Below, one piece after another: positions 1,312 through 13,562 of a stretch of DNA of 25,367 nucleotides. Position 1 is the stretch's first letter; each line of letters begins with the position of its first letter. The notes under the pieces were generated by a model, which saw only the letters and a list, made by a program, of their open reading frames with translations, was not told the DNA's origin and did no database searches. This DNA is from a virus. Its lineage: Duplodnaviria > Heunggongvirae > Uroviricota > Caudoviricetes. Location: positions 1 through 25,367 of the IMG/VR virus record IMGVR_UViG_2690315922_000022; one strand, 5' to 3'. The translations under genes were made by a program, and so were the position numbers.

Positions 1312-1674
1312 ATGTTAAAGCTATTTGCAAAGTACACCTCGATTGGTGTGCTAAACACACTTATACACTGGGTGGTTTTTGGTGTCTGTATCTATGCAGC
1401 GCATACAAATCAGGCTCTGGCAAACTTCGCAGGTTTCGTTGTGGCAGTGAGCTTTAGCTTCTTCGCGAATGCAAAATTCACATTCAAAGCATCGGCTACA
1501 ACGATGCGCTACATGTTATATGTCACGTTCATGGGAGCGCTTAGCGCTGCTGTTGGATGGGCTGCTGATAGATGCGCACTTCCCCCAATCATTACTCTTA
1601 TAACCTCCTCCGCCATCAGCCTGGTGTGCGGTTTCGTCTATTCAAGGTTAATTGTCTTTAGGAGTGCGAAATGA
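1312..1674 (+). CDS. gtrA: GtrA, bactoprenol-linked glucose translocase (flippase), small 4-TM membrane protein
   Basis: 120-aa hydrophobic protein immediately downstream of int, overlapping the next gene by 4 nt (ATGA); size and sequence are typical of GtrA in serotype-converting phages. Confidence 0.9.
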
Positions 1675-2594
1675 AGATATCTCTTGTAGTTCCTGTCTTC
1701 AATGAAGAAGAGGCGATACCAATTTTTTATAAAACGGTGCGTGAATTCGAAGAGTTGAAGCCATATGAAGTAGAAATTGTTTTTATAAATGATGGTAGCA
1801 AAGACGCTACTGAGTCAATTATTAATGCTCTGGCTGTTTCAGATCCTCTAGTTATTCCTCTGTCATTTACTCGCAACTTTGGTAAAGAACCAGCATTGTT
1901 TGCAGGGTTAGACCATGCTACTGGAGATGCCGTGATTCCAATTGATGTTGACCTGCAAGACCCGATTGAGGTTATCCCTCATCTTATTGAAAACTGGCAG
2001 GCTGGCGCCGATATGGTGCTGGCAAAGCGTTCAGACCGCTCTACAGATGGGCGTCTGAAGCGCAAGACAGCAGAGTGGTTTTATAAGCTTCACAATAAAA
2101 TCAGCAATCCGAAGATCGAGGAAAATGTTGGCGATTTCCGGCTGATGTCCCGCGATGTAGTGGATAATATTAAGCTTATGCCAGAACGCAATCTTTTCAT
2201 GAAAGGCATTCTTAGTTGGGTTGGTGGGTCTACAGATGTAGTTGAGTATGTCCGTGCTGAGCGGATAGCCGGCAGCACGAAATTCAATGGATGGAAATTA
2301 TGGAACCTAGCACTTGAAGGTATAACAAGTTTCTCCACTTTCCCTCTGCGTATGTGGACTTATATTGGGCTATTCGTAGCTGGAATGGCTCTTTTATATG
2401 GCACATGGATGATTATCGATACCTTGGTGTTTGGGAATCCGGTTCGCGGTTACCCATCACTTATTGTATCCATTCTCTTCTTAGGCGGAATTCAGCTTAT
2501 AGGAATTGGCGTACTTGGTGAATATATAGGAAGAATTTACATAGAGTGCAAAGATAGACCTAGATTTATTATCAAGAGAATGAAAAATGAATAA
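1671..2594 (+). CDS. gtrB: GtrB, bactoprenol glucosyltransferase (GT2 family)
   Basis: 307 aa; N-terminal GT2 signature ([23 protein letters not shown]) and two C-terminal TM helices; coupled to gtrA and to the downstream gene by overlapping stop/start. Confidence 0.92.
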
Positions 2595-4017
2595 AACAAT
2601 TAAAATCAACTTCTACATACTATTTATTATTTTGTTTTTTATTATAACATGTAATATTTACTACTATGATGATGTATTTAGATCGTATTGGGGATATTAT
2701 GGTTGGTCTGAAGATGGAAGGCCTTTTGCAGATTTATTCTATAAATTATTTATTTTCTTTAGATCTGAAAGCATACCAGATATTTACCCACTACCACTAA
2801 TTTTAACGTCTGTGCTTCTTGTTATATCACTAACAAAGGCATTGCAAAATATACTATCAAAAGATGGGGTTATAGTTAATATAACTTTTGCAATATTTAT
2901 GCTTAATCCTTTTCTTTTGTCTAATATGCTATTTAGATATGATGGTGCATTTATGATTTTATCTATTGCACTTTCGGCTATTCCGTTCATTTTTACAAAA
3001 AGTAGAACATTCGCCATATCATCACTACTGTGCCTAACAATATCGCTTGGATTGTATCAGGCCTCAATAAATGTGTATATTGGACTTGCATCAGTAGTGG
3101 TTGCAATGGAAGCATTGAAAGGGGAAAAGTTTACATCTATAGCCAGCAGAGTGCTATTATCTGTTACATGCGTAGTCTCTTCATATGTTATATACTCAAA
3201 ATTAATACTTGAATCATTATCTTTAAATAATAACTTCTCGAAATATGCTCAAATAGTTGAATTAAATAAAGGAGGAGTCATCAATGTTTATGAGAATATA
3301 ATTAACGCAGTTAAAAAAATTGATGTTGCTCTTCATAGTGGTATTGGAACACCTCTTTATATATTTCTATCAATAATAGCCATATCATCTGTGTGTGTTG
3401 CCATTAAACGAAAACAATTTCAGTTACTATTTTTTATTGCTATATCTATTTTAGGTTGTTTCTTTTCTTCTTTTGGTGTGTCTGTCTTTGGGAAATCGCC
3501 AGTATTTGTGTCAAGGATATTTATCGGATTTGGTGTTTTTATAATGGCAGTTCCTTTGATTGGCTCAGCACTTCTTAATTGGAAACTTAATTACTTACTA
3601 TCATTATTCATTGCAATTCCTATGCTGTCCATCTTTTTTGCCACCATTAATGCCTCAAGAGAGGAATTTAAATTCCAAAACAATTTATCACTTCAAATGA
3701 TTAATGATATTAATCATAGCAAAGCTAAATATCTCGACTTTGTTGTTATTGATGGCTATGCGAAGAACTCCTCTGTTGCAAGCATAAATAAGAAAATATT
3801 TCCCGTAATATCTGATATATTGCCTCCTGTCTTTACAAATAGATATGATGGTGGGGTTTTTACATTGATGAGAAATGGACTAAAAGATGTTGTTAGTGCT
3901 GAGTCATCAGCTGCAGACAACGCGGTATCAATATCAGATGACGGAAATCTAATTTCTGACAATAATATATATAGCATTCATGCGACCAAAGATATTATTG
4001 TAATAAAATTAAAATAA
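2587..4017 (+). CDS. Serotype-specific O-antigen glucosyltransferase (GtrC-type polytopic membrane protein); exact specificity not identifiable
   Basis: 476-aa multi-TM protein as third gene of the gtr operon; very AT-rich compared with gtrAB, as is typical of horizontally acquired type-specific gtr genes. Confidence 0.8.
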
Positions 4018-4084: not shown

Positions 4085-6148
4085 CTAAGAAAAAATCCAA
4101 TTACCATACATTCCAGTTATTTCACTATATGTGCCTTCTTTATTTTTTAATTTAATCCAAGCGCCGAATTCAGTGGTGGCTACTTGCGTTACTTCTGAAG
4201 AGTTACTTACAAACCTTATATTTGCTACACCTATTGCTCTACTTGGTGATGAGATTGTCATAGCTCTTATTATTTTTAACTCTCTGAAATCACCAGTGCT
4301 ACTTGCAATTATATCAATATCATTAGTGCTATGGTTAAATATAATGGTGTTATTTAACAGCTTTGTATTTTGAAAAGATGTTATTGTGGCAATCCCTCCA
4401 ATAAATCCTCTTATCTGGGCCGGGCCAGTATCTCCACTATCATAGGCTAATGATGTGGTTATATTATCTTCCTCCTTTCCTATATGTATATCAATAAAGT
4501 ACTCTTTTAAACTAATACCAGCCAAAACTAAAAATGTTGATATAGTAGATGTACATTTTTTAATAACCAGATTCTTAAAATTTCGAGATAACCCGCTGCT
4601 TATTGGATCAATAGTTCTAGGTAATAATCTGATTATTTTATCCCCACCAGCTATAGTAGTTTCATCAACAATTTCACCTATTTCCACAAAAAGGCGGTCA
4701 TCCCCCAGCATTTCAAAAACACAAAAGTCTAAAGGAGACGTTTTAAATACCACTCTATCAATTAAGATTTTCCCTATACCATTTCCCATAACTCTAGTAG
4801 CTGTCACCCCTCTGTTAGTCACATTCGTTAGTGTTGTATTCCCCGAGATGATTACATCAGCTACAAGACTGTCAGGGAAAATATTAAGTTCCAAACCAGT
4901 ATACGCACCATTGATGTATGGGTTTGAGATTTCACAATTAATCAGCCGAGGGACAGTGTGTCCAGGCACACTTTCGTCTGCCTCTGGTTCAATATCTATG
5001 CCAGATTTCGGCATAGCACCTGTAACACCTCCGTAGTCACCAATATTATAAATCTCAGGATTAACTATTATTATGTTTTCACCTGACGTTAGGCTTATAC
5101 CGTTACGCCTGCATTGTTTGATGATCGGTTTTTCTATATAGATATTTTCTGGGACCGTGCCATCGGTAGTCCCCCACTTCATGCCTATATATATTCCGTC
5201 GCCAAACATGTTGGTATACAGTCCACCAATAATACGAATATTAGAGGATTGAAGTATTGTAAGCCCCCACCCATGTTCTCCTTCGGATGTGTTTGTTAAC
5301 CGATCACCTTCCAGTACAGGATTATAAATATTTACATTTTTAACACCGTTTGCTATGTAAATGATATGGCTTTGTGGCCTGTTTTGATTTGCTAGTTTTA
5401 ATGCCCCATCCTTTTCAAACCTTATAGTGCTATTATCTACGCATCTTAACACAGATTTAAAAGCATCATTTCCAGGTGAAAAAGGGTCTTCATTCACAGC
5501 CATCAAGTTTTCAAATGATTTATCTATAATGAATTCTGCACCAATAGACGCTGCGGATTCATACGCTTTTTGTAGTGTTTGTGCGTCATTGCAAAAATCA
5601 GAAGCATAAATAGAGCTGGTTTTCTTTAATTCAAATATCCTACCGTTTCTGCTCCTGATAATTAATATTCCATCTGGGGTGAGCGTGGGGGTGGATGATT
5701 CATAAACATATCTACCATGAATCATTACATGATTAAATATATCTGGGACATCCTCTTGCTCTATATTAATAGCAACATATATAAGTTTATTACTTAACTC
5801 CCCCCTTAACTGATCAGGGTCATACTTCAGCACATTCTGGAAATAGAACTGCTGTACGCCATACGCATCATAAACAGCCATAGAATGGCCTTGCACGGTT
5901 ACGAACTTGGCAATCTGTCCGTTATATACAGGGTAACCAGCAGCGTTAATGATGATTGGTTGCGATACAGGAACGTGAGAGCCGTCTTCGTTCTCCACAT
6001 AAACCTGAATCTGGTTTTCAGGATTTACCGGGTCAGTATCAATTTTACCGATATAAATTTTGCCATTAGCTACGGCTTTAAAAGAACGCGCCATAGTGAA
6101 GAGTTGCGAAGGCATGCTAACTACAACATTGGCTGTAATGTCTGTCAT
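4085..6148 (-). CDS. Tailspike protein: P22/Sf6-type N-terminal head-binding domain plus divergent right-handed beta-helix receptor-binding domain (probable O-antigen depolymerase)
   Basis: 687 aa; the first ~110 aa ([34 protein letters not shown]...KYDPDQ) match the conserved tailspike N-terminal domain as I recall it; the remainder is AT-rich with beta-helix-like repeats ([22 protein letters not shown]); GGAG RBS 9 nt upstream. Confidence 0.85.
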
Positions 6149-6248: not shown

Positions 6249-7127
6249 TCAGTAGTTATGTACTGAAGGAGGTAATTCTTTATTCTTAAGTCTCATCCAT
6301 GCGGAAAGATTCGTTGGTCCGTCTGGCTCATTAATATCAACATCTCGTGTGTGATTGATTAAAACGTCTCTCGCCATTCCGATAACATACGAGAACTCAT
6401 GACCGTAGTCGTAGCATCTGCCGGAATAGTTCGATTGAATTTGTTTTAGCGCCGGATACAGTTCGCGGAATAATGCCTGTGAGCGGTTAGCATAATCCCA
6501 TAACCATACAAGGCTGTTTGCTTCTTTTGCAGAAAGCTCGTCGGTTTTCTTCTCTTGTTTGCCAATGAACTCGCCTTCAAGCACTACCCTGTGGATGTAC
6601 TCTACGGCCAGCGGGATTTGTTCAATTGAAAGTTCATCAATACTGTCAATACCAAAACGCTGATGAACCATATTGTATGCATCGTCATAGCGAAGTCCTT
6701 TCTTTCCTACCAGCATGTTTACTGCATCGCGTAGCGGTGTTCTTTCCTCAACAGTGGTTTTCTTTCCTTTTACATACTCGCCATGTTTGCGAATTGAAGG
6801 CAGAACTTCTGCTGTTACCCATTTGCGGAATTTGTGCGGGACTGAACCTTTATTGACTGCATCGCGGCAGCGCAGAACCAATGTATACATACCTGATTCG
6901 CTCACAATGCTTAGATTCTGCTCACCACCAAGGGTGTAACTTAAAGTTACTCCCTTTTCATCGTCATCAAGTGCAGTAAGCGCCTTGCGTGAGTTAGTCA
7001 AAGCTAAAGCATCACAAACATCTTTAGCTACAAACCACGGCTCACCGCACTTGTTGATGACGCGGATTTCACTGTCGCCGAATTTGAAGATGGTGAAATC
7101 GTTTTGTGCCTTTGCTATACTTTTCAT
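6249..7127 (-). CDS. ant: Antirepressor Ant (Bro-N / KilA-type N-terminal domain plus ANT C-terminal domain)
   Basis: 292 aa (P22 Ant is about 300 aa); N-terminal [11 protein letters not shown]...[14 protein letters not shown] motif; located immediately downstream of the arc-like gene as in P22 immI. Confidence 0.85.
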
Positions 7128-7199
7128 GTCAATATTTCCTAATCCGATTTGTTGATACCGAAGCCCTGACTGTTACAGCAGTTGGGGCTTCAACTTTTT
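7128..7199 (+). ncRNA. sar: Candidate sar-like antisense RNA covering the ant RBS and arc-ant intergenic region
   Basis: Plus-strand hairpin GAAGCCC (7160-7166) / GGGCTTC (7185-7191) followed by T5 (7195-7199), antisense to the ant leader; no plus-strand gene is upstream. The 5' end is not defined and promoter elements are weak. Confidence 0.3.
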
Positions 7200-7330: not shown

Positions 7331-7440
7331 TTCTTTCCCAATTGCTACACCATGATAACTAAATACTACACCGTGTTTATTTAAAGTCAAAATTTTTTTG
7401 CCTACACTGTGTAGCAATGCTACAGCGTGCAGGAGGAAAA
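7331..7440. promoter_or_regulatory. Divergent Pant / Pmnt promoter-operator region with four CTACAC-type repeats
   Basis: Minus strand: -35 TTGACT (7390-7385), 16-nt spacer, -10 TAGTAT (7368-7363). Palindromes ACACCGTGT (7368-7376) and CTACACTGTGTAG (7402-7414) plus GCTACACC and GCTACAGC copies; AGGAGG RBS sits 4 nt before the mnt ATG. Confidence 0.5.
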
Positions 7441-7689
7441 ATGAAAGGTGCAAGAGATATCAGTCCCTTGGGAATTAGGATTCCAGACTATTTAAAGAAA
7501 CGCATTCAGCAGGAAGCGGATAAAAACGGCAGATCAATGAACTCAGAGATTGTGCTTATCCTTCAAAAACATGTTGATAATCTTGATGGCCCTCGCTCAC
7601 TTGAAGGATTCGCTAACCAAGAAGCTGATAAATTCAAAGAGGCGCTGCTTGAGACGCTGAAAACCATGTATGGCAAGGATGAAAAATGA
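7441..7689 (+). CDS. mnt: Mnt-like ribbon-helix-helix repressor with C-terminal coiled-coil
   Basis: 82 aa from the Met preceded by AGGAGG; N-terminus RDISPLGIRIPDYLKKRIQQEADKNGRSMNSEI is an RHH fold; length matches P22 Mnt (83 aa); divergent from arc-ant. Confidence 0.7.
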   Translation: MKGARDISPLGIRIPDYLKKRIQQEADKNGRSMNSEIVLILQKHVDNLDGPRSLEGFANQEADKFKEALLETLKTMYGKDEK

Positions 7690-7895
7690 ACAAAAAACAG
7701 TTTATTAAGTCAACAACGTCAAGCAAGGAAGAGCTAGAGAAGGAGCTAAACTCCCTGAAATATGCTCTGTGCCTGGTTTACTCAAGACTGCCAATGGAAG
7801 ATAAAAACGCCATTTACAATGAAATGATTAACAGCCTTGATTTTAACGATAGAGACCTAGCATCCCACCTCAACAGCTTCCGCGTCCCTGAGTAA
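7686..7895 (+). CDS. Hypothetical 69-aa protein translationally coupled to mnt
   Basis: ATGA stop/start overlap with mnt; AAGGA RBS; AT-rich; no family recognised. Confidence 0.45.
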   Translation: MNKKQFIKSTTSSKEELEKELNSLKYALCLVYSRLPMEDKNAIYNEMINSLDFNDRDLASHLNSFRVPE

Positions 7896-8055
7896 TTCTA
7901 TTGCGGATTTGCTTCTTACGGTGGTTTAAGCTGGAGAGCTTGGCTTCTGCTTCTGATATTTGCGCATCAAGATCTTTAAGCTCAAGATCTGAAAGTCGCT
8001 GGTCAAGCAGGGTTTGGTTCAACTCAATGTTGTTCAGGCGTTCTTCTATGGTCAT
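7870..8055 (-). CDS. Hypothetical 62-aa coiled-coil protein
   Basis: Internal Met with strong RBS (AAGGAGAAATC-ATG); heptad-like sequence (LNNIELNQTLLDQRLSDLELKDLDAQISEAEAKL); its 3' end overlaps the convergent 69-aa gene by 26 nt. Confidence 0.4.
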   Translation of the reverse strand: MTIEERLNNIELNQTLLDQRLSDLELKDLDAQISEAEAKLSSLNHRKKQIRNRITQGRGSC

Positions 8056-8196
8056 GATTTCTCCTTGTTGAGGTTGATGTGAAACGATTGATTGTATACG
8101 CACTCTTTTGTTAGCTAGTAGCTTTGCTTAATCGCAAGATAAAGTTTCTGATTAATCCCTAAAAATCAAAAAATAAAGTTAAAACAGGTACATGAT

Positions 8197-8400
8197 ATGG
8201 AATGGATCATAGGATTTGTTGTTCTTGTCTTCATAGCCAGTATGTTTAAACCAAGAAGTTGCGATATCTGTGGTGCTGGATTTAAGAAAAAGTACTTCAC
8301 ATGGACTATCGATGGAAAGAAACAGCATCTTTGTCCGTACTGCAACAGTAAAATGGAGAGACGCAACAGCGATAGGCGCTTTAAGGATCGATTTGGTTAA
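8197..8400 (+). CDS. Hypothetical small membrane protein with zinc-ribbon-like C-terminus
   Basis: 67 aa: N-terminal TM helix (WIIGFVVLVFIASMF) followed by CDICG...CPYC, then a basic tail; terminator follows immediately. Confidence 0.5.
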   Translation: MEWIIGFVVLVFIASMFKPRSCDICGAGFKKKYFTWTIDGKKQHLCPYCNSKMERRNSDRRFKDRFG

Positions 8401-8413
8401 CCATTTTATCTCC

Positions 8414-8449
8414 AACAAAAAACCCACCTGACGGTGGGTTTCATTTCTT
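8414..8449. terminator. Bidirectional intrinsic terminator
   Basis: AACCCACC-TGAC-GGTGGGTT hairpin flanked by an A-run upstream and a T-rich tract downstream; lies between the convergent 8197-8400 (+) and 8448-8867 (-) genes. Confidence 0.55.
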
Positions 8450-8867
8450 AATCTTGCTTCGTGGAAGGTATAAGAGATGCATTTGCCTCTTTTGGCTTCA
8501 ATGTATACATCCCACCATTAAATGGATCAACAGCAAGCCAACCAATTAACCCACCAAACACAAGGTTTCCACCAATATACCAACCATTAGCATTGGCTTT
8601 GATTGGCAGGGTAACTGATTCGTACCCATCCTTTTCCATAGTGATCTGGTAGCTCTTTTTGCCAAAATAACTACCATCTGACTTGGCAAGAGTTACTCCT
8701 TGTGGAGTCTTGCCTTGCGCAACAATCACGCCTGATTCATCTTTTACCTTAAAGCTCGCACCGGAAGGGTTGCTGTTCACTTGCACAAGTTGCGTTTCAT
8801 CACCAACAATAGTTGCGCACCCAGATAACATCATAGCGCCAGCAACGACGCCAATAATCCTCTTCAT
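8448..8867 (-). CDS. Outer-membrane lipoprotein with PEGA-like beta-domain and glycine-rich hydrophobic C-terminal motif
   Basis: Signal peptide with lipobox (MKRIIGVVAGAMMLSGC, Ala at +2); mature region VNSNPSGASFKV...GKTP...EKDGYESVT fits the PEGA pattern; C-terminal GGNLVFGGLIGWLAVDPFNGGMY. An alternative start 12 nt upstream (MEIDMKR) is possible. Confidence 0.6.
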   Translation of the reverse strand: MKRIIGVVAGAMMLSGCATIVGDETQLVQVNSNPSGASFKVKDESGVIVAQGKTPQGVTLAKSDGSYFGKKSYQITMEKDGYESVTLPIKANANGWYIGGNLVFGGLIGWLAVDPFNGGMYTLKPKEANASLIPSTKQD

Positions 8868-8988
8868 ATCAATTTCCATATTTAAAAAACCGGAAACATC
8901 CTAATGACAAACCATTCAAATGTGAAGTAGGCAAAAGATGTTTACTTTTTTCATGATATCCTGTGAAAAACTAAGGAGAGTTAACCAT

Positions 8989-9474
8989 ATGAAAAAATCA
9001 CTGTTAATTATCCCGCTTCTGCTGGTTGGATGCGCAAAAGTAAGTGACTATCAAGCAAGTTGCGAACAACGCTATCACAAGCTTAGCGATATGGCTAATT
9101 GCCTTGATGCCAGTGTGAAGAACGACTCACGCATGGCATCAGCACCAACACCTAAGTTGTATGTCCTTGCTGCAAAGATGCTCGGGCAAGGTGTCGATGA
9201 AGGCAAGATAAGTGACGCACAGGCAAGGCTTGAGCTTCAGAATCTTTATGTTCAATTACAAAGCCAAGAACAAGCCCAACAAATAGCACAAAGCCAAGCA
9301 TTCCAGCAGGCTTTATTGAATTATCAGGCTGTAAACACAATGCAAGCGATCGAGCAAAAAGCGAGACAGCCTGTTATAACTCAACCCTATCCAACACGCG
9401 TTGACACTTACACAAACTGCAATTCAGGGTTTGGAAATACAGTCACATGCAACAGTAGCAGTAACATAAGATAA
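8989..9474 (+). CDS. Lipoprotein with Gln-rich coiled-coil region, function unknown
   Basis: Start at the internal Met preceded by AAGGAGAG RBS; lipobox signal MKKSLLIIPLLLVGC (Ala at +2); several Cys and a Q-rich helical segment; divergently transcribed from the neighbouring lipoprotein. Confidence 0.6.
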   Translation: MKKSLLIIPLLLVGCAKVSDYQASCEQRYHKLSDMANCLDASVKNDSRMASAPTPKLYVLAAKMLGQGVDEGKISDAQARLELQNLYVQLQSQEQAQQIAQSQAFQQALLNYQAVNTMQAIEQKARQPVITQPYPTRVDTYTNCNSGFGNTVTCNSSSNIR

Positions 9475-9564
9475 CAATCAGCAAAGGTATCGCCTATGCA
9501 GAGTGGTACGATAAACCTCGCGTTCTACATATTTGGTTTTTGCACGTTCCTGGTATTTGCGAAG

Positions 9565-11562
9565 CTATTCTGACAACGCATCAGACTTGGCACCCTGAGT
9601 AATGGCGTTAATGGCCTTTTGCGCCTGCTGCATAGCTTTCTCAAACGCTGTTGATCCGCGTGGGGTATTTGCCATTCGGAGCATTGCATTTCTGAATGGC
9701 TCGCTCTCATAGGCGCGAGTAAGAAGTCCGTAGCTTACCGCTGCGCCAGTTGTCGCCGGGTTCATTGCCGTCCCATACCCGATAATGAACGGGATGGTTT
9801 GCTGCCCTGTTGGTGTTGTTACTGCTGCTTTTGCAGCCTGCTGCGTGGATTGCAGGTAGTTTTTCAATCCTTTCAGATAAGCGGCTTCCTGACCTTTAAA
9901 TGTGATGCCAGTCTGGTTTTGCAGGATGTTAAGCTGCCGAAGGAACTGGTCAGGGGATCCGCCAGATTTCTCCATCGCCTTTCCAATGATGCCATTGCGC
10001 ATTTGCGCCCTGCCAACACGACCAACTGAGTTATACAGCGTCTTAATTTCCGATTTGTTCTTGCTGAATAGCATGTTGTTGACAACTTCCGGCGTCAGGT
10101 CGCCTTTCATGAGAACATTCTTCAGCCTGGTATTCTTTAGTTTCGCCGCTTCGTCAGCGTAGACGGCATTGGCCTGCTGATATTTACGGAGAGTATCGTT
10201 GCCAAGATTCTGACCAATGGCACCATTGATATCGTCTGTCATTGCCTTGTAAACGCGCTGAATGGCAGCATCGGAACGGTTTGGTAACACTGGTCGTTCC
10301 CCCTTCACGTCCATTCTGAACTGGCTGCGCAGATCGCTTAATTGCTTCAAATCCAGATTTACCGGACCATCAGGACTAGCATTGCGAATAAGCTCATCAC
10401 GATAGGATTGAAGTTTTGAAATCGTCTCGTTATCAGCGACCTTACCAAGCTTCTGCAGGTTAGATATCTCAGTATCAATCTGCTGAATTGCTCGCACAGG
10501 CTGAATGTTTACTCCAGCCATAGCATTCTGAACCTGCTCCAGTCGATTACCGGCAGCACGACGAATTCCTGATGTTTTCGCTTTAAGGCTGTCAATAACA
10601 ACTGCCGGATCGTACTCGCCGAATTTATCAGCAAATCTCTGCACCAACTGGCTTCTCGCTTCCTGTTGCGTTGCTCTCATTCCGCTTGTGCCAGCCAGAG
10701 GGATATTTTCTGCTGTAGTCTGCGCCATTTTTCCGACGCGGGAAGTTGGTTGTAACAGGTCTGTGGTGTGCAGAGGAACTCCTTCACGCTCTGCAAATCT
10801 GATAGCCTGTTGCGCTTCTGGTGCGATAGCACCACGAACGCCACGATAAGCAGCACCTAATCCACGTCCGGCAGCGTTAATAGCACCGCCAGCCAGCACA
10901 CCAACGCCTAAATCGGTGGCGAGTGCTTCCGCATCATCTTTCGCACTGTTTGCAGCAAGTGATCCAACTGCGTTTTCTGCGAGAAGGCGAGTTGCCCCCT
11001 GAGCAATTCGACCAGCAAGTGTTGGTGCCTGTGTTGCCGCTCTCTCAACGCCAGCAGGAGTGAGGTAAGGCAATGCTTCAGCAAACACCCTGCCCTCTGT
11101 CGTTTGTGGAGTCAGCGCGCCTTGCTGAAGGCCAAAGTCCTGCTCTAATCCCTGCGTTGTTACTCGTGGCGCTGGTTGATATGTACCATCGCCAATGCCG
11201 AGTTTACCGCCAGCCCATGCAGCCGCACTTGTTACAGCATCGGCAACTGATGCAGGTATGTTTGCCACGTTCACGCCAGCCTGCACCAGTCCGCGACCAG
11301 TCTCTTTTACTGCTTCGCCAAGATCAGACATAAATCCACTTTGCTGTGGTTGTTGCTGTGCTACTGGTTGCTGTGTCTCCACTTGCTGCACAGATGGCAA
11401 TGGATAGGCAGCATAGAAAGCTTGCTTAGCCTGCTCTGCATTTTCTCCGGCTTGCGGGGCCACGACTTCATTGAAGTATTGCTCCTGAGCCTGCGCTTTT
11501 TGTTCTGGTGCTAACGCCTGATACTGTGGAGAGGCGATAACATCTTTCCATGCTTTAGCCAT
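9565..11562 (-). CDS. Ejection (E) protein, P22 gp16-like
   Basis: 665 aa, Ala/Gln/Gly-rich; position and composition match P22 gene 16; start overlaps the gp20 stop by 1 nt (TAATG). Confidence 0.8.
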   Translation of the reverse strand: MAKAWKDVIASPQYQALAPEQKAQAQEQYFNEVVAPQAGENAEQAKQAFYAAYPLPSVQQVETQQPVAQQQPQQSGFMSDLGEAVKETGRGLVQAGVNVANIPASVADAVTSAAAWAGGKLGIGDGTYQPAPRVTTQGLEQDFGLQQGALTPQTTEGRVFAEALPYLTPAGVERAATQAPTLAGRIAQGATRLLAENAVGSLAANSAKDDAEALATDLGVGVLAGGAINAAGRGLGAAYRGVRGAIAPEAQQAIRFAEREGVPLHTTDLLQPTSRVGKMAQTTAENIPLAGTSGMRATQQEARSQLVQRFADKFGEYDPAVVIDSLKAKTSGIRRAAGNRLEQVQNAMAGVNIQPVRAIQQIDTEISNLQKLGKVADNETISKLQSYRDELIRNASPDGPVNLDLKQLSDLRSQFRMDVKGERPVLPNRSDAAIQRVYKAMTDDINGAIGQNLGNDTLRKYQQANAVYADEAAKLKNTRLKNVLMKGDLTPEVVNNMLFSKNKSEIKTLYNSVGRVGRAQMRNGIIGKAMEKSGGSPDQFLRQLNILQNQTGITFKGQEAAYLKGLKNYLQSTQQAAKAAVTTPTGQQTIPFIIGYGTAMNPATTGAAVSYGLLTRAYESEPFRNAMLRMANTPRGSTAFEKAMQQAQKAINAITQGAKSDALSE

Positions 11563-12857
11563 TAATCACCCCATAGTGAAGAAAAGTTACTGCCAGTAGT
11601 AGATTGTTGCCCTGGCATATTCTGCACCGGCTCCTGATAATCAAACTGTTTTTTAACAGTGCTCAACTTGCTTTCAAGCTGATTTCTAATCTTTCCGATA
11701 GAGTCACGAAAAGCCTTTTCACTCATTTTGGGGCTTAGGGCACCAACCGCATCGGATAATTTTTTACCCTCAGCATCTGAAAGAGCGCCCATACCCTTCA
11801 GGGACTGCACCATAGGAAGGAATGTTTGAGCTTTAAAGGTGTCGAGCCTTGCTTCAAAGTTAGCCGCATCAGAGCCAGGAACTGTCGGAAACGCTGAGCG
11901 AATTCCTACTGCTTTTGAAAGGCCGGGGCTTTGCTCTATCTCGTTGAGAGAATCAAGCGCGGTGCTGAACGTATCAACTGCACCCTGAGCGGCGGCCTGC
12001 CTGTCAGCGCGGGCTATGTCAGCCTTTTGCCGAACATCTGCCTGTTTCTGTTTTAGCTCTTCAAGCTTTAACTGATTGCTTTCTCTGGCTATCTGTCTGT
12101 CCAGAGCCTTTTCTTGTAATTCTGCTCTTTGTATTTCGCGGGAAAGAGCAGCATTCTGTGCGCTGATGTTCTGTCCACGTATCTGGATGTCCTGACCACG
12201 CGCTGTTAGTGCTTCTCCAGCCTGATTGCTGCGGATTGTCTCTGCCAGCCTACCTCGGTCAATCTCACGACCAGCCATCTTGTCCTGAACATTGAAGTAG
12301 TCAATCGGACCGAGAGCAGCCATCCCAAGGTGATCAACAAACTCACCAAATCCTGAAGGATTCTGCTGATACATCTGAGCAACGTTATTAGGGTCAACAC
12401 CGACGCTAGTCAGTTCCTTGGCGTTGTTTTGCAGCCATGATTGCATTGCTTCTGGAGACGATGCCGCAAGACGAGCGCCAGCCGCTAAGGTGCCGATAGA
12501 ATTGCGCTGGTCTTCATCAATGAATCCCATGCCTTTACGAACGGATTCAATCTGGTCCGGATATTGAGTAGCCAACTGACGCAAAGCACCGCGATCACCA
12601 GACGCATAAGCATTAGCGTATGCCTGCTGAAATTCTTTCTGCCGCTGAGCCTGCTTTTCCTGCTGAAACACCCCCGCAATACCTGAAAGGCCTTGCAAAG
12701 CAGTCAGCCCAACATTGTTAGCGCCGGAACGCTCAATATCATTGTTCTGCCTGATAAGCTGAAGCGTATTGCCGATGTCATTTACGCTAGGAGCGTTTGA
12801 GTTGACGCCACCGATACCAGCCAACAATCCGCCATTTGATCCTTGCCAAGTAGCCAT
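11562..12857 (-). CDS. Ejection (E) protein, P22 gp20-like
   Basis: 431 aa; N-terminus MATWQGSNGGLLAGIGG... typical of gp20-type injection proteins; conserved order 7-20-16. Confidence 0.8.
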   Translation of the reverse strand: MATWQGSNGGLLAGIGGVNSNAPSVNDIGNTLQLIRQNNDIERSGANNVGLTALQGLSGIAGVFQQEKQAQRQKEFQQAYANAYASGDRGALRQLATQYPDQIESVRKGMGFIDEDQRNSIGTLAAGARLAASSPEAMQSWLQNNAKELTSVGVDPNNVAQMYQQNPSGFGEFVDHLGMAALGPIDYFNVQDKMAGREIDRGRLAETIRSNQAGEALTARGQDIQIRGQNISAQNAALSREIQRAELQEKALDRQIARESNQLKLEELKQKQADVRQKADIARADRQAAAQGAVDTFSTALDSLNEIEQSPGLSKAVGIRSAFPTVPGSDAANFEARLDTFKAQTFLPMVQSLKGMGALSDAEGKKLSDAVGALSPKMSEKAFRDSIGKIRNQLESKLSTVKKQFDYQEPVQNMPGQQSTTGSNFSSLWGD

Positions 12858-12866
12858 GATGACCCC

Positions 12867-13562
12867 TTAAAACAACGAGCCAAGCAGGCCAAGCCCGCCA
12901 CCAATTGCGGCGCCTAATCCAGTACCAAGTCCGGGGACAATAGAGCCAAGAGCGGCCCCAGTCATAGCTCCTGAAGCTCCTCCGCTAATTGCTGTCTGAA
13001 GACCTGATGGCTTATTGGCATTAGCAGCGGCGAGAGCTGCGCTTTGCTGTGCAATGCTGCTCATGTTGTTGGCGTATGTCTGCCCGGCGTTCGCCTGACC
13101 TTGCAACGCACCAAGGCCAATGTTTGCCAGATTGTTGTAGTTGCTCATCTGGTTTGATAACCACGACTGACCGAGAGTCGGCGCAATCGTAGCCAGTTGA
13201 TTGCTTGTGGCTGTCGATCCAAGTCCACCCGTTGCCTCCGCTGCAGCAAGACTCTGGTAACGCGCCTGACCTGCAAGGTCTTTATACTGCTGAGAGTTGT
13301 AATACTGATTAAGTGCCTGCCCCTGTCCTTCTAAACTGGAAAGATTCTGAAGCTGGTTAACATACTGCTCCGCAAGCGGCGTGAACGGAGCAAGGTTTTT
13401 CATGATCGTCTGCCACTGCTGATTTTGCAGGTCTGCGGCATACTTCTGAGCTTCTGCTGCATACTTTGCGCTTTTATCAGAGCTGCCACCTTTCCCGCCT
13501 TTTTCAGGGCAATAAGGTTCCTCGCCGCGCAGTTTTCTGCCCAGCTTAAATGCATATAACAT
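12867..13562 (-). CDS. Ejection (E) protein, P22 gp7-like
   Basis: 231 aa (P22 gp7 is 229 aa); N-terminus MLYAFKLGRKLRGEEP...EKGGKGGSS and glycine-rich C-terminus GAAIGGGLGLLGSLF match gp7 as I recall it. Confidence 0.85.
   Translation of the reverse strand: MLYAFKLGRKLRGEEPYCPEKGGKGGSSDKSAKYAAEAQKYAADLQNQQWQTIMKNLAPFTPLAEQYVNQLQNLSSLEGQGQALNQYYNSQQYKDLAGQARYQSLAAAEATGGLGSTATSNQLATIAPTLGQSWLSNQMSNYNNLANIGLGALQGQANAGQTYANNMSSIAQQSAALAAANANKPSGLQTAISGGASGAMTGAALGSIVPGLGTGLGAAIGGGLGLLGSLF

What the first reader, a model, noticed from the sequence alone, without database searches (positions are those of the whole stretch)
8197..8449. Membrane-anchored zinc-ribbon miniprotein followed by a bidirectional terminator
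The 67-aa product has one N-terminal TM helix followed by CxxC...CxxC and a basic tail. Small membrane-tethered zinc-ribbon proteins are not standard P22 module components. It is an isolated transcription unit bounded by a clean hairpin terminator, as expected for a moron.
Basis: seen in the sequence. Interest (0 to 1): 0.5.

Follow-up and report, generated by a model that had tools for sequence, protein, structure and literature searches.

The report
Repressor-linked membrane zinc-finger prophage miniprotein
A real, strongly conserved 67-residue prophage gene encodes a membrane-anchored zinc-finger protein that travels with the phage's antirepressor-control module and is probably made in the lysogen, but its function is still unknown.

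Summary
The ORF at 8197-8400 (+) is a genuine gene. The sense frame is open in 42/42 distinct homologous sequences, substitutions concentrate at third codon positions, and dN/dS is about 0.08. The antisense frames are not conserved. The product has a 15-residue N-terminal anchor, a Cys4 finger starting 4 residues after the anchor, and a basic helix (pI 9.75). The AF2 model (pLDDT 82) looks treble-clef-like rather than a classic zinc ribbon.

The hairpin at 8420-8441 is real, has U-tracts on both strands, and is the same hairpin that ends mnt in P22 and epsilon34.

The "isolated transcription unit" reading is not supported. No promoter is detectable. In about 30 divergent prophages the gene lies -1 to 36 nt downstream of the Mnt-like repressor, and once it follows a CI/LexA-type repressor instead. 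It runs antisense to the late operon. It is therefore most likely the distal, lysogen-expressed gene of the repressor unit in the known "ant moron".

It also occurs in E217-like myoviruses, so it follows the immI module and not P22 ejection proteins. No Pfam, NCBIfam, PHROG or PADLOC family, solved structure or paper covers it. A defence or exclusion role is plausible but untested.

The parts
8197..8400 (+). CDS of the 67-aa miniprotein (stop codon included)
   Evidence: ORF listing. Coding-type conservation across 42 distinct homologous CDSs, dN/dS about 0.08. The exact protein is on record as 'hypothetical protein' in E. coli on 425 contigs.
8186..8189 (+). Shine-Dalgarno-like AGGT, 7 nt upstream of the ATG
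   Evidence: Read directly from the sequence. Homologous loci also carry purine-rich SD-like motifs before the MEW start.
8197..8247 (+). Residues 1-17: N-terminal membrane anchor (ME + WIIGFVVLVFIASMF), predicted N-out/C-in
   Evidence: KD mean 2.66. AF2 helix at residues 2-16. 134 of 139 remote relatives have a hydrophobic 15-mer directly upstream of the C4 motif. The topology is inferred, not measured.
8260..8343 (+). Residues 22-49: Cys4 zinc finger (C22, C25, beta-hairpin 34-45, C46, C49)
   Evidence: The four Cys are 97-98% conserved in 109 remote relatives, W36 88% and N50 92%. AF2 secondary structure. Zinc binding is inferred, not shown.
8335..8394 (+). Residues 47-66: basic C-terminal helix with conserved S58 and an FKDRFG end
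   Evidence: AF2 helix 47-66. S58 is 94% conserved in the wide family. The RFG end is conserved in close relatives.
8420..8441 (.). Bidirectional intrinsic-terminator hairpin (A-tract 8417-8422, T-rich tail 8439-8449), equal to the ancestral mnt terminator
   Evidence: The same hairpin sits at the mnt stop codon in epsilon34, where it is annotated as a Rho-independent terminator, and in P22. 40 of 43 phage-context loci have a hairpin of -12 kcal/mol or stronger within 70 nt after the gene.
8067..8414 (.). Mosaic cassette (intergenic region plus miniprotein gene) absent from isolated P22-like phages
   Evidence: Megablast breakpoints at query positions 376/377 and 726. The cassette is present in 55 of 5426 complete E. 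coli genomes. Kapi1 carries two signal-peptide ORFs in this slot.
7417..7689 (+). Mnt-like Arc-family (RHH) repressor gene, head of the same-strand unit
   Evidence: Pfam Arc, E 7e-8. phmmer against P22 Mnt, E 3.6e-8.
7686..7895 (+). orf69, same strand, between mnt and the miniprotein gene
   Evidence: phrog_16466, unknown function.
7870..8055 (-). 61-aa coiled-coil (XhlA-like) gene on the opposite strand, divergent from the miniprotein gene
   Evidence: phrog_7586. Annotated in RefSeq and in Kapi1.
8448..8879 (-). Convergent lipoprotein gene (lipobox LSGC) that ends 6 nt from the hairpin
   Evidence: phrog_6823. Homolog of epsilon34 gene 15.
7129..7195 (+). sar antisense RNA of the immI region
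   Evidence: Rfam RF00262, 69.4 bits, E 1.5e-13.
6249..7127 (-). Antirepressor Ant (Bro-N + P22_AR_C)
   Evidence: Pfam.

Best explanation
The ORF is a genuine gene for a bitopic inner-membrane protein. A 15-17-residue N-terminal anchor places about 2 residues in the periplasm. A Cys4 zinc finger (beta-hairpin plus helix, treble-clef-like) and a strongly basic helix are held directly against the cytoplasmic face of the membrane.

The gene is cargo of the immunity-I / 'ant moron' module. It belongs to the repressor-side transcription unit (Pmnt, mnt, orf69, miniprotein gene, hairpin terminator), which runs antisense to the late operon. The protein is therefore made in the lysogen together with the maintenance repressor and not during lytic growth.

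The most likely role is a lysogen-expressed accessory (conversion or defence) function acting at the inner face of the membrane, for example interfering with entering foreign DNA or a superinfecting phage. It would do so by binding a conserved ligand (nucleic acid, anionic lipid or a conserved host membrane-associated machine), not by recognising P22-specific ejection proteins.

Shown here: the gene is real, its sequence features, its linkage to repressor genes, and the terminator anatomy and ancestry. Inferred: membrane insertion and topology, zinc binding, and co-transcription with mnt in this particular window. Speculative: the defence or exclusion function and the nature of the ligand.

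The confidence of 0.45 is for the statement as a whole. By component: gene real about 0.97; membrane-anchored zinc protein about 0.8; repressor-unit membership about 0.8 for the family and about 0.6 for this window; defence or exclusion role about 0.3.
For: Gene is real.

Anchor and finger.

C-in topology: the positive-inside charge bias. Relatives with Sec-type signal peptides and periplasm-type N-terminal domains place the finger after the TM segment (P0044, P0047, P0061, P0069). Two-TM relatives start with MARRKK.

Repressor linkage: in about 30 of 47 viral contigs an Arc/Mnt-family gene ends -1 to 36 nt upstream on the same strand. True Mnt orthologs sit 0 nt upstream in L052 and L056. In L084 a CI/LexA-type HTH+S24 repressor replaces Mnt and the gene is still 61 nt downstream, divergent from an antirepressor.

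Window-specific: no terminator-like site lies between mnt and 8420, and no promoter-like site precedes the ORF. The hairpin is the mnt terminator of P22 and epsilon34. The orientation is opposite to the ejection-protein and tailspike late genes.

Locus precedent: P22 sieA and orf59a occupy the same interval (PMC10883804, PMC2629481). No SieA of any type co-occurs in any of the loci. Kapi1 carries other envelope-targeted small proteins in the slot.

Hint of nucleic-acid involvement: net charge is about +7 across the family, and one relative carries a C-terminal HNH nuclease fusion (P0119).
Against: There are no expression data of any kind.

In this window the gene lies 507 nt from mnt, with orf69 and an opposite-strand gene in between. 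Read-through from Pmnt is therefore plausible but unproven, and convergent transcription could limit it.

There is no PADLOC hit and no homology to any known exclusion or defence protein.

The finger is highly conserved from Enterobacterales to Planctomycetota, and most remote relatives are not phage-borne. Stand-alone chromosomal copies sit among housekeeping genes in Proteus, Photorhabdus, Morganella and Enterobacter. Both points fit a general cellular role as well as they fit defence.

The 15-residue anchor is short for a membrane span.
Confidence: 0.45

Rival explanations
1. It is a borrowed cellular small membrane protein. The finger family has a general, non-antiviral role, such as modulating a conserved membrane-associated host machine or a stress response. 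The prophage copy is then a lysogenic-conversion gene that alters host physiology, not phage susceptibility.
For: There are 300 cluster representatives at E<=1e-3 across bacteria, and the TM-plus-finger unit is conserved. Sources include Planctomycetota MAGs. Only 1 IMG/VR locus was found for the 2-TM relatives. Chromosomal copies lie at genus-conserved positions beside rbsD/dxs, ABC transporters and MFS transporters. Strong purifying selection on the finger fits a conserved target better than a fast-evolving phage target.
Against: The distribution is patchy (1% of complete E. coli genomes). The Enterobacterales subfamily is overwhelmingly inside prophage repressor units. Toxin genes (YafO, SymE) lie next to some copies. 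No consistent host-gene neighbour suggests a pathway.
Confidence: 0.2
2. It is a regulatory accessory of immunity I. The membrane-tethered finger would act on the antirepressor circuit itself, for example by sequestering Ant or a co-factor at the membrane, or by tuning prophage induction, as a second safeguard co-expressed with the repressor of ant.
Confidence: 0.13
3. One reading: an autonomous moron with its own promoter whose product, like SieA, blocks DNA delivery by targeting the P22-type ejection proteins gp7/gp20/gp16.
For: The gene lies in the same interval as P22 sieA, next to gp16, gp20 and gp7 homologs. It is an inner-membrane protein. No SieA is present in any locus that carries the gene. 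SieA acts on gp16 and gp20 (PMC10883804).
Against: No promoter is detected. Close homologs live in E217-like contractile-tail prophages without gp7/20/16. Only about 2 residues could reach the periplasm, where gp20 acts. There is no sequence, TM-number or motif similarity to SieA. The finger is conserved far beyond hosts of P22-like phages.
Confidence: 0.08
4. It is the toxin of a toxin-antitoxin-like or abortive-infection pair. The upstream RHH protein would be the antitoxin and autorepressor, and the small membrane protein the membrane-damaging toxin.
For: The RHH gene followed at 0-36 nt by a small hydrophobic-headed protein mimics type II TA architecture. One upstream neighbour in the set hit ParE. 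TA toxins lie nearby in some loci.
Against: The upstream genes are bona fide Mnt orthologs or homologs divergent from arc and ant. In L084 the partner is an S24 repressor. Many stand-alone copies have no partner. In this window the gene is 507 nt from mnt.
Confidence: 0.06
5. The ORF is spurious, and the real feature is an antisense ORF (as PGAP calls it in UMNK88) or a non-coding region.
For: RefSeq leaves the + ORF unannotated in three complete genomes, and in UMNK88 it annotates a 102-aa antisense ORF. No Pfam family covers the ORF.
Against: The sense frame is open in 42/42 sequences, while the antisense frames are open only in near-identical E. coli-type sequences (15/42). The codon-position entropy pattern and dN/dS of about 0.08 are coding signatures. 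Homologs reach 60-70% identity across nine or more genera and remote relatives span phyla. No Rfam family lies over the ORF.
Confidence: 0.02

Closest known systems
P22 SieA (superinfection exclusion A) and the 'ant moron' cargo genes of P22-like phages
   Same: It occupies the same genomic interval (between gene 16 and the tailspike gene), has the same orientation (antisense to the late operon, co-directional with mnt), is an inner-membrane protein, and is presumably expressed from the prophage (PMC10883804, PMC2629481).
   Different: SieA is 162-164 aa with three TM segments, carries a cytoplasmic FxRYPxEAxxFNK motif and has its own promoter. The miniprotein is 67 aa with one anchor and a Cys4 finger, lacks the motif, shows no sequence similarity, and has no detectable promoter.
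P22 orf59a (distal gene of the mnt transcription unit)
   Same: It holds the identical position: downstream of mnt and upstream of the annotated mnt terminator. Its function is also unknown.
   Different: The sequences are unrelated (hhalign probability 0.1%). orf59a has no hydrophobic segment and no Cys motif.
Repressor-operon accessory genes such as lambda rexAB (established knowledge; analogy drawn in PMC2629481 for epsilon34 genes 44/45)
   Same: Accessory genes placed directly downstream of a maintenance repressor, so that they are made in the lysogen. Several such genes exclude other phages.
   Different: Here the repressor is the secondary (Mnt-type) repressor of the antirepressor, not the primary CI. 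The product is a single tiny zinc-finger protein, and no exclusion phenotype is known.
Small Cys4 fingers: Pfam Zn_ribbon_8 / FmdB CxxC_CxxC_SSSS, zf_Tbcl_Rhp7 treble clef, and the aMBF1 N-terminal ribbon
   Same: They share the CxxC...CxxC spacing and small size, and give weak profile matches.
   Different: All scores are below the curated cut-offs: 16.9 vs 34.4 bits, 26.9 vs 27 bits (for homolog P0014 only), and 22.8 vs 110 bits. None of those families has the obligatory preceding TM segment or the W36 / N50 / S58 signature.

Membership tests
P22 SieA family (types A-C) | Detectable sequence similarity to SieA, including the cytoplasmic FxRYPxEAxxFNK motif | tested here: not met
   phmmer with P22 SieA against all ORFs of at least 45 aa in the window and 80+ loci hit only P22 itself. 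The motif regex also hit only P22.
P22 SieA family (types A-C) | About 160-200 aa with three or four TM segments | tested here: not met
   The protein is 67 aa with one hydrophobic segment, residues 3-17.
P22 SieA family (types A-C) | Located between the gene 16 and gene 9 homologs of a P22-like prophage | tested here: met
   gp16-like gene at 9565-11562(-) and tailspike at 4085-6148(-). Homologs also occur in non-P22-like myoviruses.
P22 SieA family (types A-C) | Blocks DNA injection by P22-like phages | not testable with these tools
   This needs plating, K+ efflux and lysogenisation assays as in PMC10883804.
Moron (independently expressed insert in a phage operon) | Presence/absence polymorphism between otherwise collinear related phages | tested here: met
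   The segment 8067-8414 is absent from 720R6, Gally, epsilon34, Kapi1 and Emek, which share the flanking DNA.
Moron (independently expressed insert in a phage operon) | Own promoter | tested here: inconclusive
   There is no sigma-70-like site on the + strand in 7400-9600 and no conserved upstream element. The consensus scan cannot exclude a weak or non-canonical promoter.
Moron (independently expressed insert in a phage operon) | Own terminator | tested here: met
   The hairpin at 8420-8441 has U-tracts on both strands. However, it is shared with, and inherited from, the mnt unit.
mnt (repressor-side) operon of immunity I | Same strand as the repressor gene and immediately downstream of it, with no intervening terminator | tested here: met
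   Relatives have gaps of -1 to 36 nt. In the window the strand is the same, the gap is 507 nt, and no terminator-like site lies before 8420. Co-transcription itself was not measured.
Zinc ribbon (Pfam Zn_ribbon_8 / NCBIfam CxxC_CxxC_SSSS) | Score at or above the curated gathering threshold | tested here: not met
   16.9 bits against a cut-off of 34.4. For relative P0019, TIGR02605 scores 20.3 against 31.3.
Zinc ribbon (Pfam Zn_ribbon_8 / NCBIfam CxxC_CxxC_SSSS) | Both zinc knuckles borne by beta-hairpins | tested here: not met
Treble-clef finger (Pfam zf_Tbcl_Rhp7) | Profile score at or above threshold | tested here: inconclusive
   Homolog P0014 scores 26.9 bits against a cut-off of 27. The window protein gives no hit at E<=1.
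Type II toxin-antitoxin pair (RHH antitoxin plus toxin) | Obligate pairing of the toxin gene with the antitoxin gene | tested here: not met
   Stand-alone copies exist without any Arc/RHH gene in loci L007-L031. The partner is replaced by an S24 repressor in L084.
Intrinsic (Rho-independent) terminator | GC-rich stem-loop followed by a U-tract | tested here: met
   Termination efficiency cannot be tested here.
Known anti-phage defence proteins (PADLOC-DB v2) | Match to any defence-system HMM | tested here: not met
   0 families at E<=0.1.

The most novel reading that the evidence does not exclude
The Enterobacterales subfamily of an unnamed, widespread 'TM-anchor plus Cys4 finger' family could be a new type of prophage immunity function. 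It would be encoded in the operon of the repressor that silences the antirepressor. It would act from the cytoplasmic face of the inner membrane, for example by capturing or blocking entering DNA. It would be shared by P22-like podoviruses and E217-like myoviruses and would stand in functionally for SieA at the same locus.
Probability: 0.22. Interest if true: 0.65.

Novelty: new member of a known kind. Interest (0 to 1): 0.4.

Why it matters
Accessory genes expressed from prophages next to repressor genes have repeatedly turned out to be exclusion or defence functions, such as rexAB, sieA and sieB.

This gene is tiny and is left unannotated in the three RefSeq complete genomes examined. It is conserved under strong purifying selection. 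It is also linked to the repressor of the antirepressor across two unrelated virion types.

It defines a sequence family with no curated model (300 clusters at 50% identity). That makes it a cheap, well-defined target for experiments. It would also justify a new family model, which would stop annotation pipelines from missing the gene or calling the wrong strand.

If it proves to be an exclusion factor acting from the cytoplasmic side, it would add a mechanism distinct from SieA. If it acts on the Ant circuit, it would add a component to a textbook regulatory module.

Tried and rejected
- **Curated protein families.** Pfam, NCBIfam, PHROGs and PADLOC scans of the protein and of remote relatives gave only sub-threshold zinc-finger noise.
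- **Solved-structure sequences.** A PDB sequence profile search gave only spurious KPxxCxxCG matches to C2H2 linkers.
- **P22 orf59a as a homolog.** Rejected, hhalign probability 0.1%.
- **SieA homology or co-occurrence.** None found.
- **Own promoter.** None was found in the window or in a Yersinia locus, and no conserved upstream motif was seen.
- **Known RNA element over the ORF.** None. Only sar RNA elsewhere and a noise-level Phe-leader hit on the hairpin.
- **Literature.** Five searches returned nothing on this protein.
- **Remote 2-TM relatives in phage contigs.** The broad alignment had no searchable block. A narrower alignment found only one IMG/VR locus, which I did not pursue.
- **Source names for remote relatives.** All are 'hypothetical'.

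Full report
**1. What is there**

The window is the right arm of a P22-like prophage. Pfam and PHROG scans identify these genes:
- integrase, 1-1158
- gtrA, gtrB and a GtrII-type gene, 1312-4017
- tailspike with a P22 head-binding domain, 4085-6148 (-)
- antirepressor Ant (Bro-N + P22_AR_C), 6249-7127 (-)
- an Arc-like gene, 7190.. (-)
- a Mnt-like Arc-family gene, 7417-7689 (+)
- homologs of ejection proteins gp16, gp20 and gp7, 9565-13562 (-)

Rfam finds sar RNA at 7129-7195 (69.4 bits), so the immunity-I region is complete.

The finding lies in the interval between mnt and gene 16. The epsilon34 genome paper calls the gene 16-to-tailspike region the rapidly changing "ant moron" (PMC2629481), and in P22 this interval holds orf59a and sieA.

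- It encodes 67 aa and has an SD-like AGGT 7 nt upstream of the ATG.
- Residues 3-17 are hydrophobic (KD 2.66).
- The Cys pattern is C22xxC25...C46xxC49.
- The remainder has 14 K+R against 5 D+E, and the pI is 9.75.

The hairpin at 8420-8441 folds at -14.2 kcal/mol on the + strand and -16.9 on the - strand. Both are about 3.5-3.8 SD better than shuffles, and U-rich tracts follow on both strands. A lipoprotein gene on the - strand ends 6 nt from it.

**2. Is the ORF a gene?**

An ORF of this size is not significant by itself, and RefSeq does not annotate it in the three complete genomes I opened. In UMNK88 an antisense ORF is annotated instead.

Homology settles the question:
- A word-indexed search found 17 clusters at 66-96% identity.
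- tblastn found copies in Klebsiella and Edwardsiella phages.
- Pattern scans recovered 26 loci in species-representative genomes of about 15 Enterobacterales genera and 47 viral contigs.

From 42 distinct coding sequences:
- The sense frame is open in 42/42.
- The two best antisense frames are open in only 15/42, all near-identical E. coli-type sequences.
- Mean entropy per codon position is 0.60/0.34/1.27.
- pN is 0.12-0.25 while synonymous sites are saturated.
- Median dN/dS is 0.084 for the non-saturated pairs.
- The MEW start is conserved, as ATG or GTG.

The exact protein is on record as "hypothetical protein" in E. coli (425 contigs). Close variants occur in Salmonella, Pantoea, Citrobacter and Yersinia. 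The antisense annotation is therefore almost certainly wrong.

**3. The protein**

AlphaFold2 with the 18-sequence alignment gives mean pLDDT 82. The model has these elements:
- helix 2-16 (the anchor)
- the first CxxC knuckle
- a beta-hairpin at 34-38 and 41-45
- the second CxxC at the N-terminus of a long helix, 47-66

An exhaustive profile search of 1.84 billion representatives found 300 proteins at E<=1e-3 and 71 at E<=1e-10. Three observations on these relatives:
- In 134 of 139 with the C4 motif, a hydrophobic 15-mer lies directly upstream, and the finger plus tail has a median net charge of +7.
- Across 109 of them the four Cys are 97-98% conserved, S58 94%, N50 92% and W36 88%.
- Architectures include 1-TM forms (67-72 aa), 2-TM forms (about 95 aa, starting MARRKK), forms with an N-terminal signal peptide and extra domain before the TM-finger unit, and one with a C-terminal HNH nuclease.

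The signal-peptide and 2-TM forms, together with the positive-inside rule, argue that the finger is cytoplasmic. In the 67-aa form only Met-Glu could face the periplasm. This topology is an inference.

No Pfam, NCBIfam, PHROG or PADLOC model reaches threshold. No source gives a functional name, and five literature searches found nothing.

**4. Genomic logic**

*(a) Mosaic cassette.* Megablast against 50,697 phage records shows that isolated P22-like phages share the flanks but not 8067-8414. Kapi1 and Emek match up to about 8066. 720R6, Gally and epsilon34 match from 8415 onward. Kapi1 has two small signal-peptide ORFs in the slot. The cassette occurs in 55 of 5426 complete E. coli genomes.

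*(b) Linkage to a repressor gene.* In about 30 of the 47 viral contigs a same-strand Arc/Mnt-family gene ends -1 to 36 nt before the miniprotein start. Nearly all viral contigs carry two Arc-family genes, and many also carry an Ant homolog. True Mnt orthologs abut the gene in L052 and L056. In L084 a CI/LexA-type HTH+Peptidase_S24 repressor, divergent from a P22_AR antirepressor, takes Mnt's place, and the miniprotein gene is still 61 nt downstream. The conserved partner is therefore the repressor that faces an antirepressor, whatever its fold.

*(c) Not tied to P22 virions.* The Yersinia copies and the copies in L084 and L085 lie in E217-like contractile-tail prophages (sheath, tube, Baseplate_J, Wedge1). 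In these the Arc/Ant module is inserted among tail genes. The gene therefore follows the immI module and not the P22 ejection proteins.

*(d) The hairpin is inherited from mnt.* The window's hairpin is the same sequence that sits at the 3' end of mnt in epsilon34, where it is annotated as a Rho-independent terminator, and in P22. In both, the mnt TGA stop lies in its loop. Similar GC-core hairpins follow the gene in 40 of 43 phage-context loci. A convergent gene lies within 100 nt in 36 of 43.

*(e) No evidence for an independent unit in the window.* No terminator-like site lies between mnt and 8420, and no promoter-like site precedes the ORF. The gene is antisense to the late operon.

*(f) No SieA.* No SieA of any type is present in the window or in any related locus.

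*(g) Stand-alone copies.* Outside phages, copies sit at genus-conserved chromosomal positions: Proteus between rbsD and dxs, Photorhabdus after an ABC transporter, Morganella, and Enterobacter next to SymE.

**5. Interpretation**

The best-supported reading is that the gene is the distal, lysogen-expressed member of the repressor-side unit of the ant moron. It would end at the old mnt terminator, which also serves the convergent lipoprotein gene.

The product is probably a bitopic inner-membrane protein that presents a zinc finger and a basic helix at the cytoplasmic face of the membrane. By analogy with other repressor-operon and ant-moron cargo (rexAB, sieA), an exclusion or defence role is the leading guess.

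Three facts argue for a conserved ligand (DNA or RNA, anionic lipid, or a conserved host machine) rather than a specific phage ejection protein:
- the strict conservation of the finger from Enterobacterales to Planctomycetota
- its presence in myovirus prophages
- its negligible periplasmic exposure

My estimates are:
- The gene is real: about 0.97.
- The protein is membrane-anchored and binds zinc: about 0.8.
- It belongs to the repressor unit in most family members: about 0.8; in this window: about 0.6.
- It has a defence or exclusion function: about 0.3.

They are weighed in the rival-explanations section of this report.

**6. Novelty and verdict**

The locus type (the ant moron and the mnt operon with unknown distal genes) is known. 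The protein exists in databases as "hypothetical". What is new is this set of observations:
- It is a real gene that the three RefSeq complete-genome annotations I opened leave uncalled (one carries an antisense ORF instead).
- It belongs to an unnamed but widespread TM-plus-Cys4-finger family.
- It is systematically linked to the repressor of the antirepressor across podovirus and myovirus prophages.

I classify it as a new member of a known kind (repressor-linked prophage cargo gene). It is moderately interesting mainly because it is easy to test.

Noticed in passing
window 7129-7195 (+): A sar antisense RNA (Rfam RF00262, 69.4 bits) lies between ant and arc. A promoter-like site at 7093-7121 and a 14-bp hairpin at 7160-7191 flank it. 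The immI region of this prophage is therefore complete and P22-like.
   Followed up: partly
window 8448-8879 (-) and 8989-9474 (+): Two lipobox proteins (LSGC and LVGC) of unknown function (phrog_6823, phrog_6067) share the same moron. The first is the epsilon34 gene 15 homolog. Lipoproteins at such loci are classic candidates for receptor-blocking exclusion.
   Followed up: partly
L003 3580-3888 (-) (NC_017641.1, UMNK88_RS34115); L001, L002: RefSeq/PGAP leaves the conserved 67-aa gene unannotated in the three complete genomes examined. In UMNK88 it annotates a 102-aa antisense ORF whose frame is not conserved in other genera.
   Followed up: yes
L084 6244-6939 (+) and 7001-7219 (+): In an E217-like myovirus contig a CI/LexA-type HTH+Peptidase_S24 repressor replaces the RHH Mnt-like gene upstream of the miniprotein. 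It is divergent from a P22_AR antirepressor.
   Followed up: partly
L081-L083, L085 (Yersinia and metagenomic contigs): An Arc/Arc-RHH/Bro-N (immI-like) module is inserted inside the tail and baseplate gene cluster of E217-like contractile-tail prophages. This parallels the ant moron of P22-like podoviruses. A YafO toxin gene lies within it in L082 and L083.
   Followed up: partly
L001 2657-3193 (+); L034 5060-5596 (+): In some E. coli prophages a 178-aa ClpP-like protease subunit gene sits between mnt and the miniprotein cassette, in place of orf69.
   Followed up: no
L016/L026 (Proteus), L017/L028/L029/L031 (Photorhabdus), L011/L013/L015 (Morganella), L019/L025/L027 (Enterobacter): Stand-alone chromosomal copies of the miniprotein gene lie at genus-conserved positions among housekeeping genes (rbsD-dxs-ispA, ABC transporter, MFS, peptidase U32). 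No Arc-family gene is nearby. In Enterobacter the copy is next to a SymE toxin gene.
   Followed up: partly
P0119, P0047, P0061, P0069, P0044 (remote relatives): Some remote relatives carry domain fusions. One has TM, finger and a C-terminal HNH nuclease. Others have a signal peptide and a periplasm-type or Sel1 domain followed by TM and finger. These are useful for topology and hint at nucleic-acid-related roles.
   Followed up: partly
L079 3501-3530 (-) (P22) and L080 2503-2524 (epsilon34): The stop codon of mnt lies in the loop of the terminator hairpin in P22 and epsilon34. P22 keeps this hairpin even though its annotated mnt terminator is a different hairpin, downstream of orf59a.
   Followed up: partly
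L087 2896-3438 (+) (phage Kapi1): Kapi1 carries two small signal-peptide ORFs (61 and 103 aa) in exactly the slot occupied by the miniprotein cassette. The slot appears to collect small envelope-targeted proteins.
   Followed up: no
window 8128-8141; L007, L009 upstream regions: The window and two Serratia stand-alone loci share a CTTAATCGCAAG-like motif about 60-70 nt upstream of the start codon. Its significance is unknown and it may be chance.
   Followed up: no
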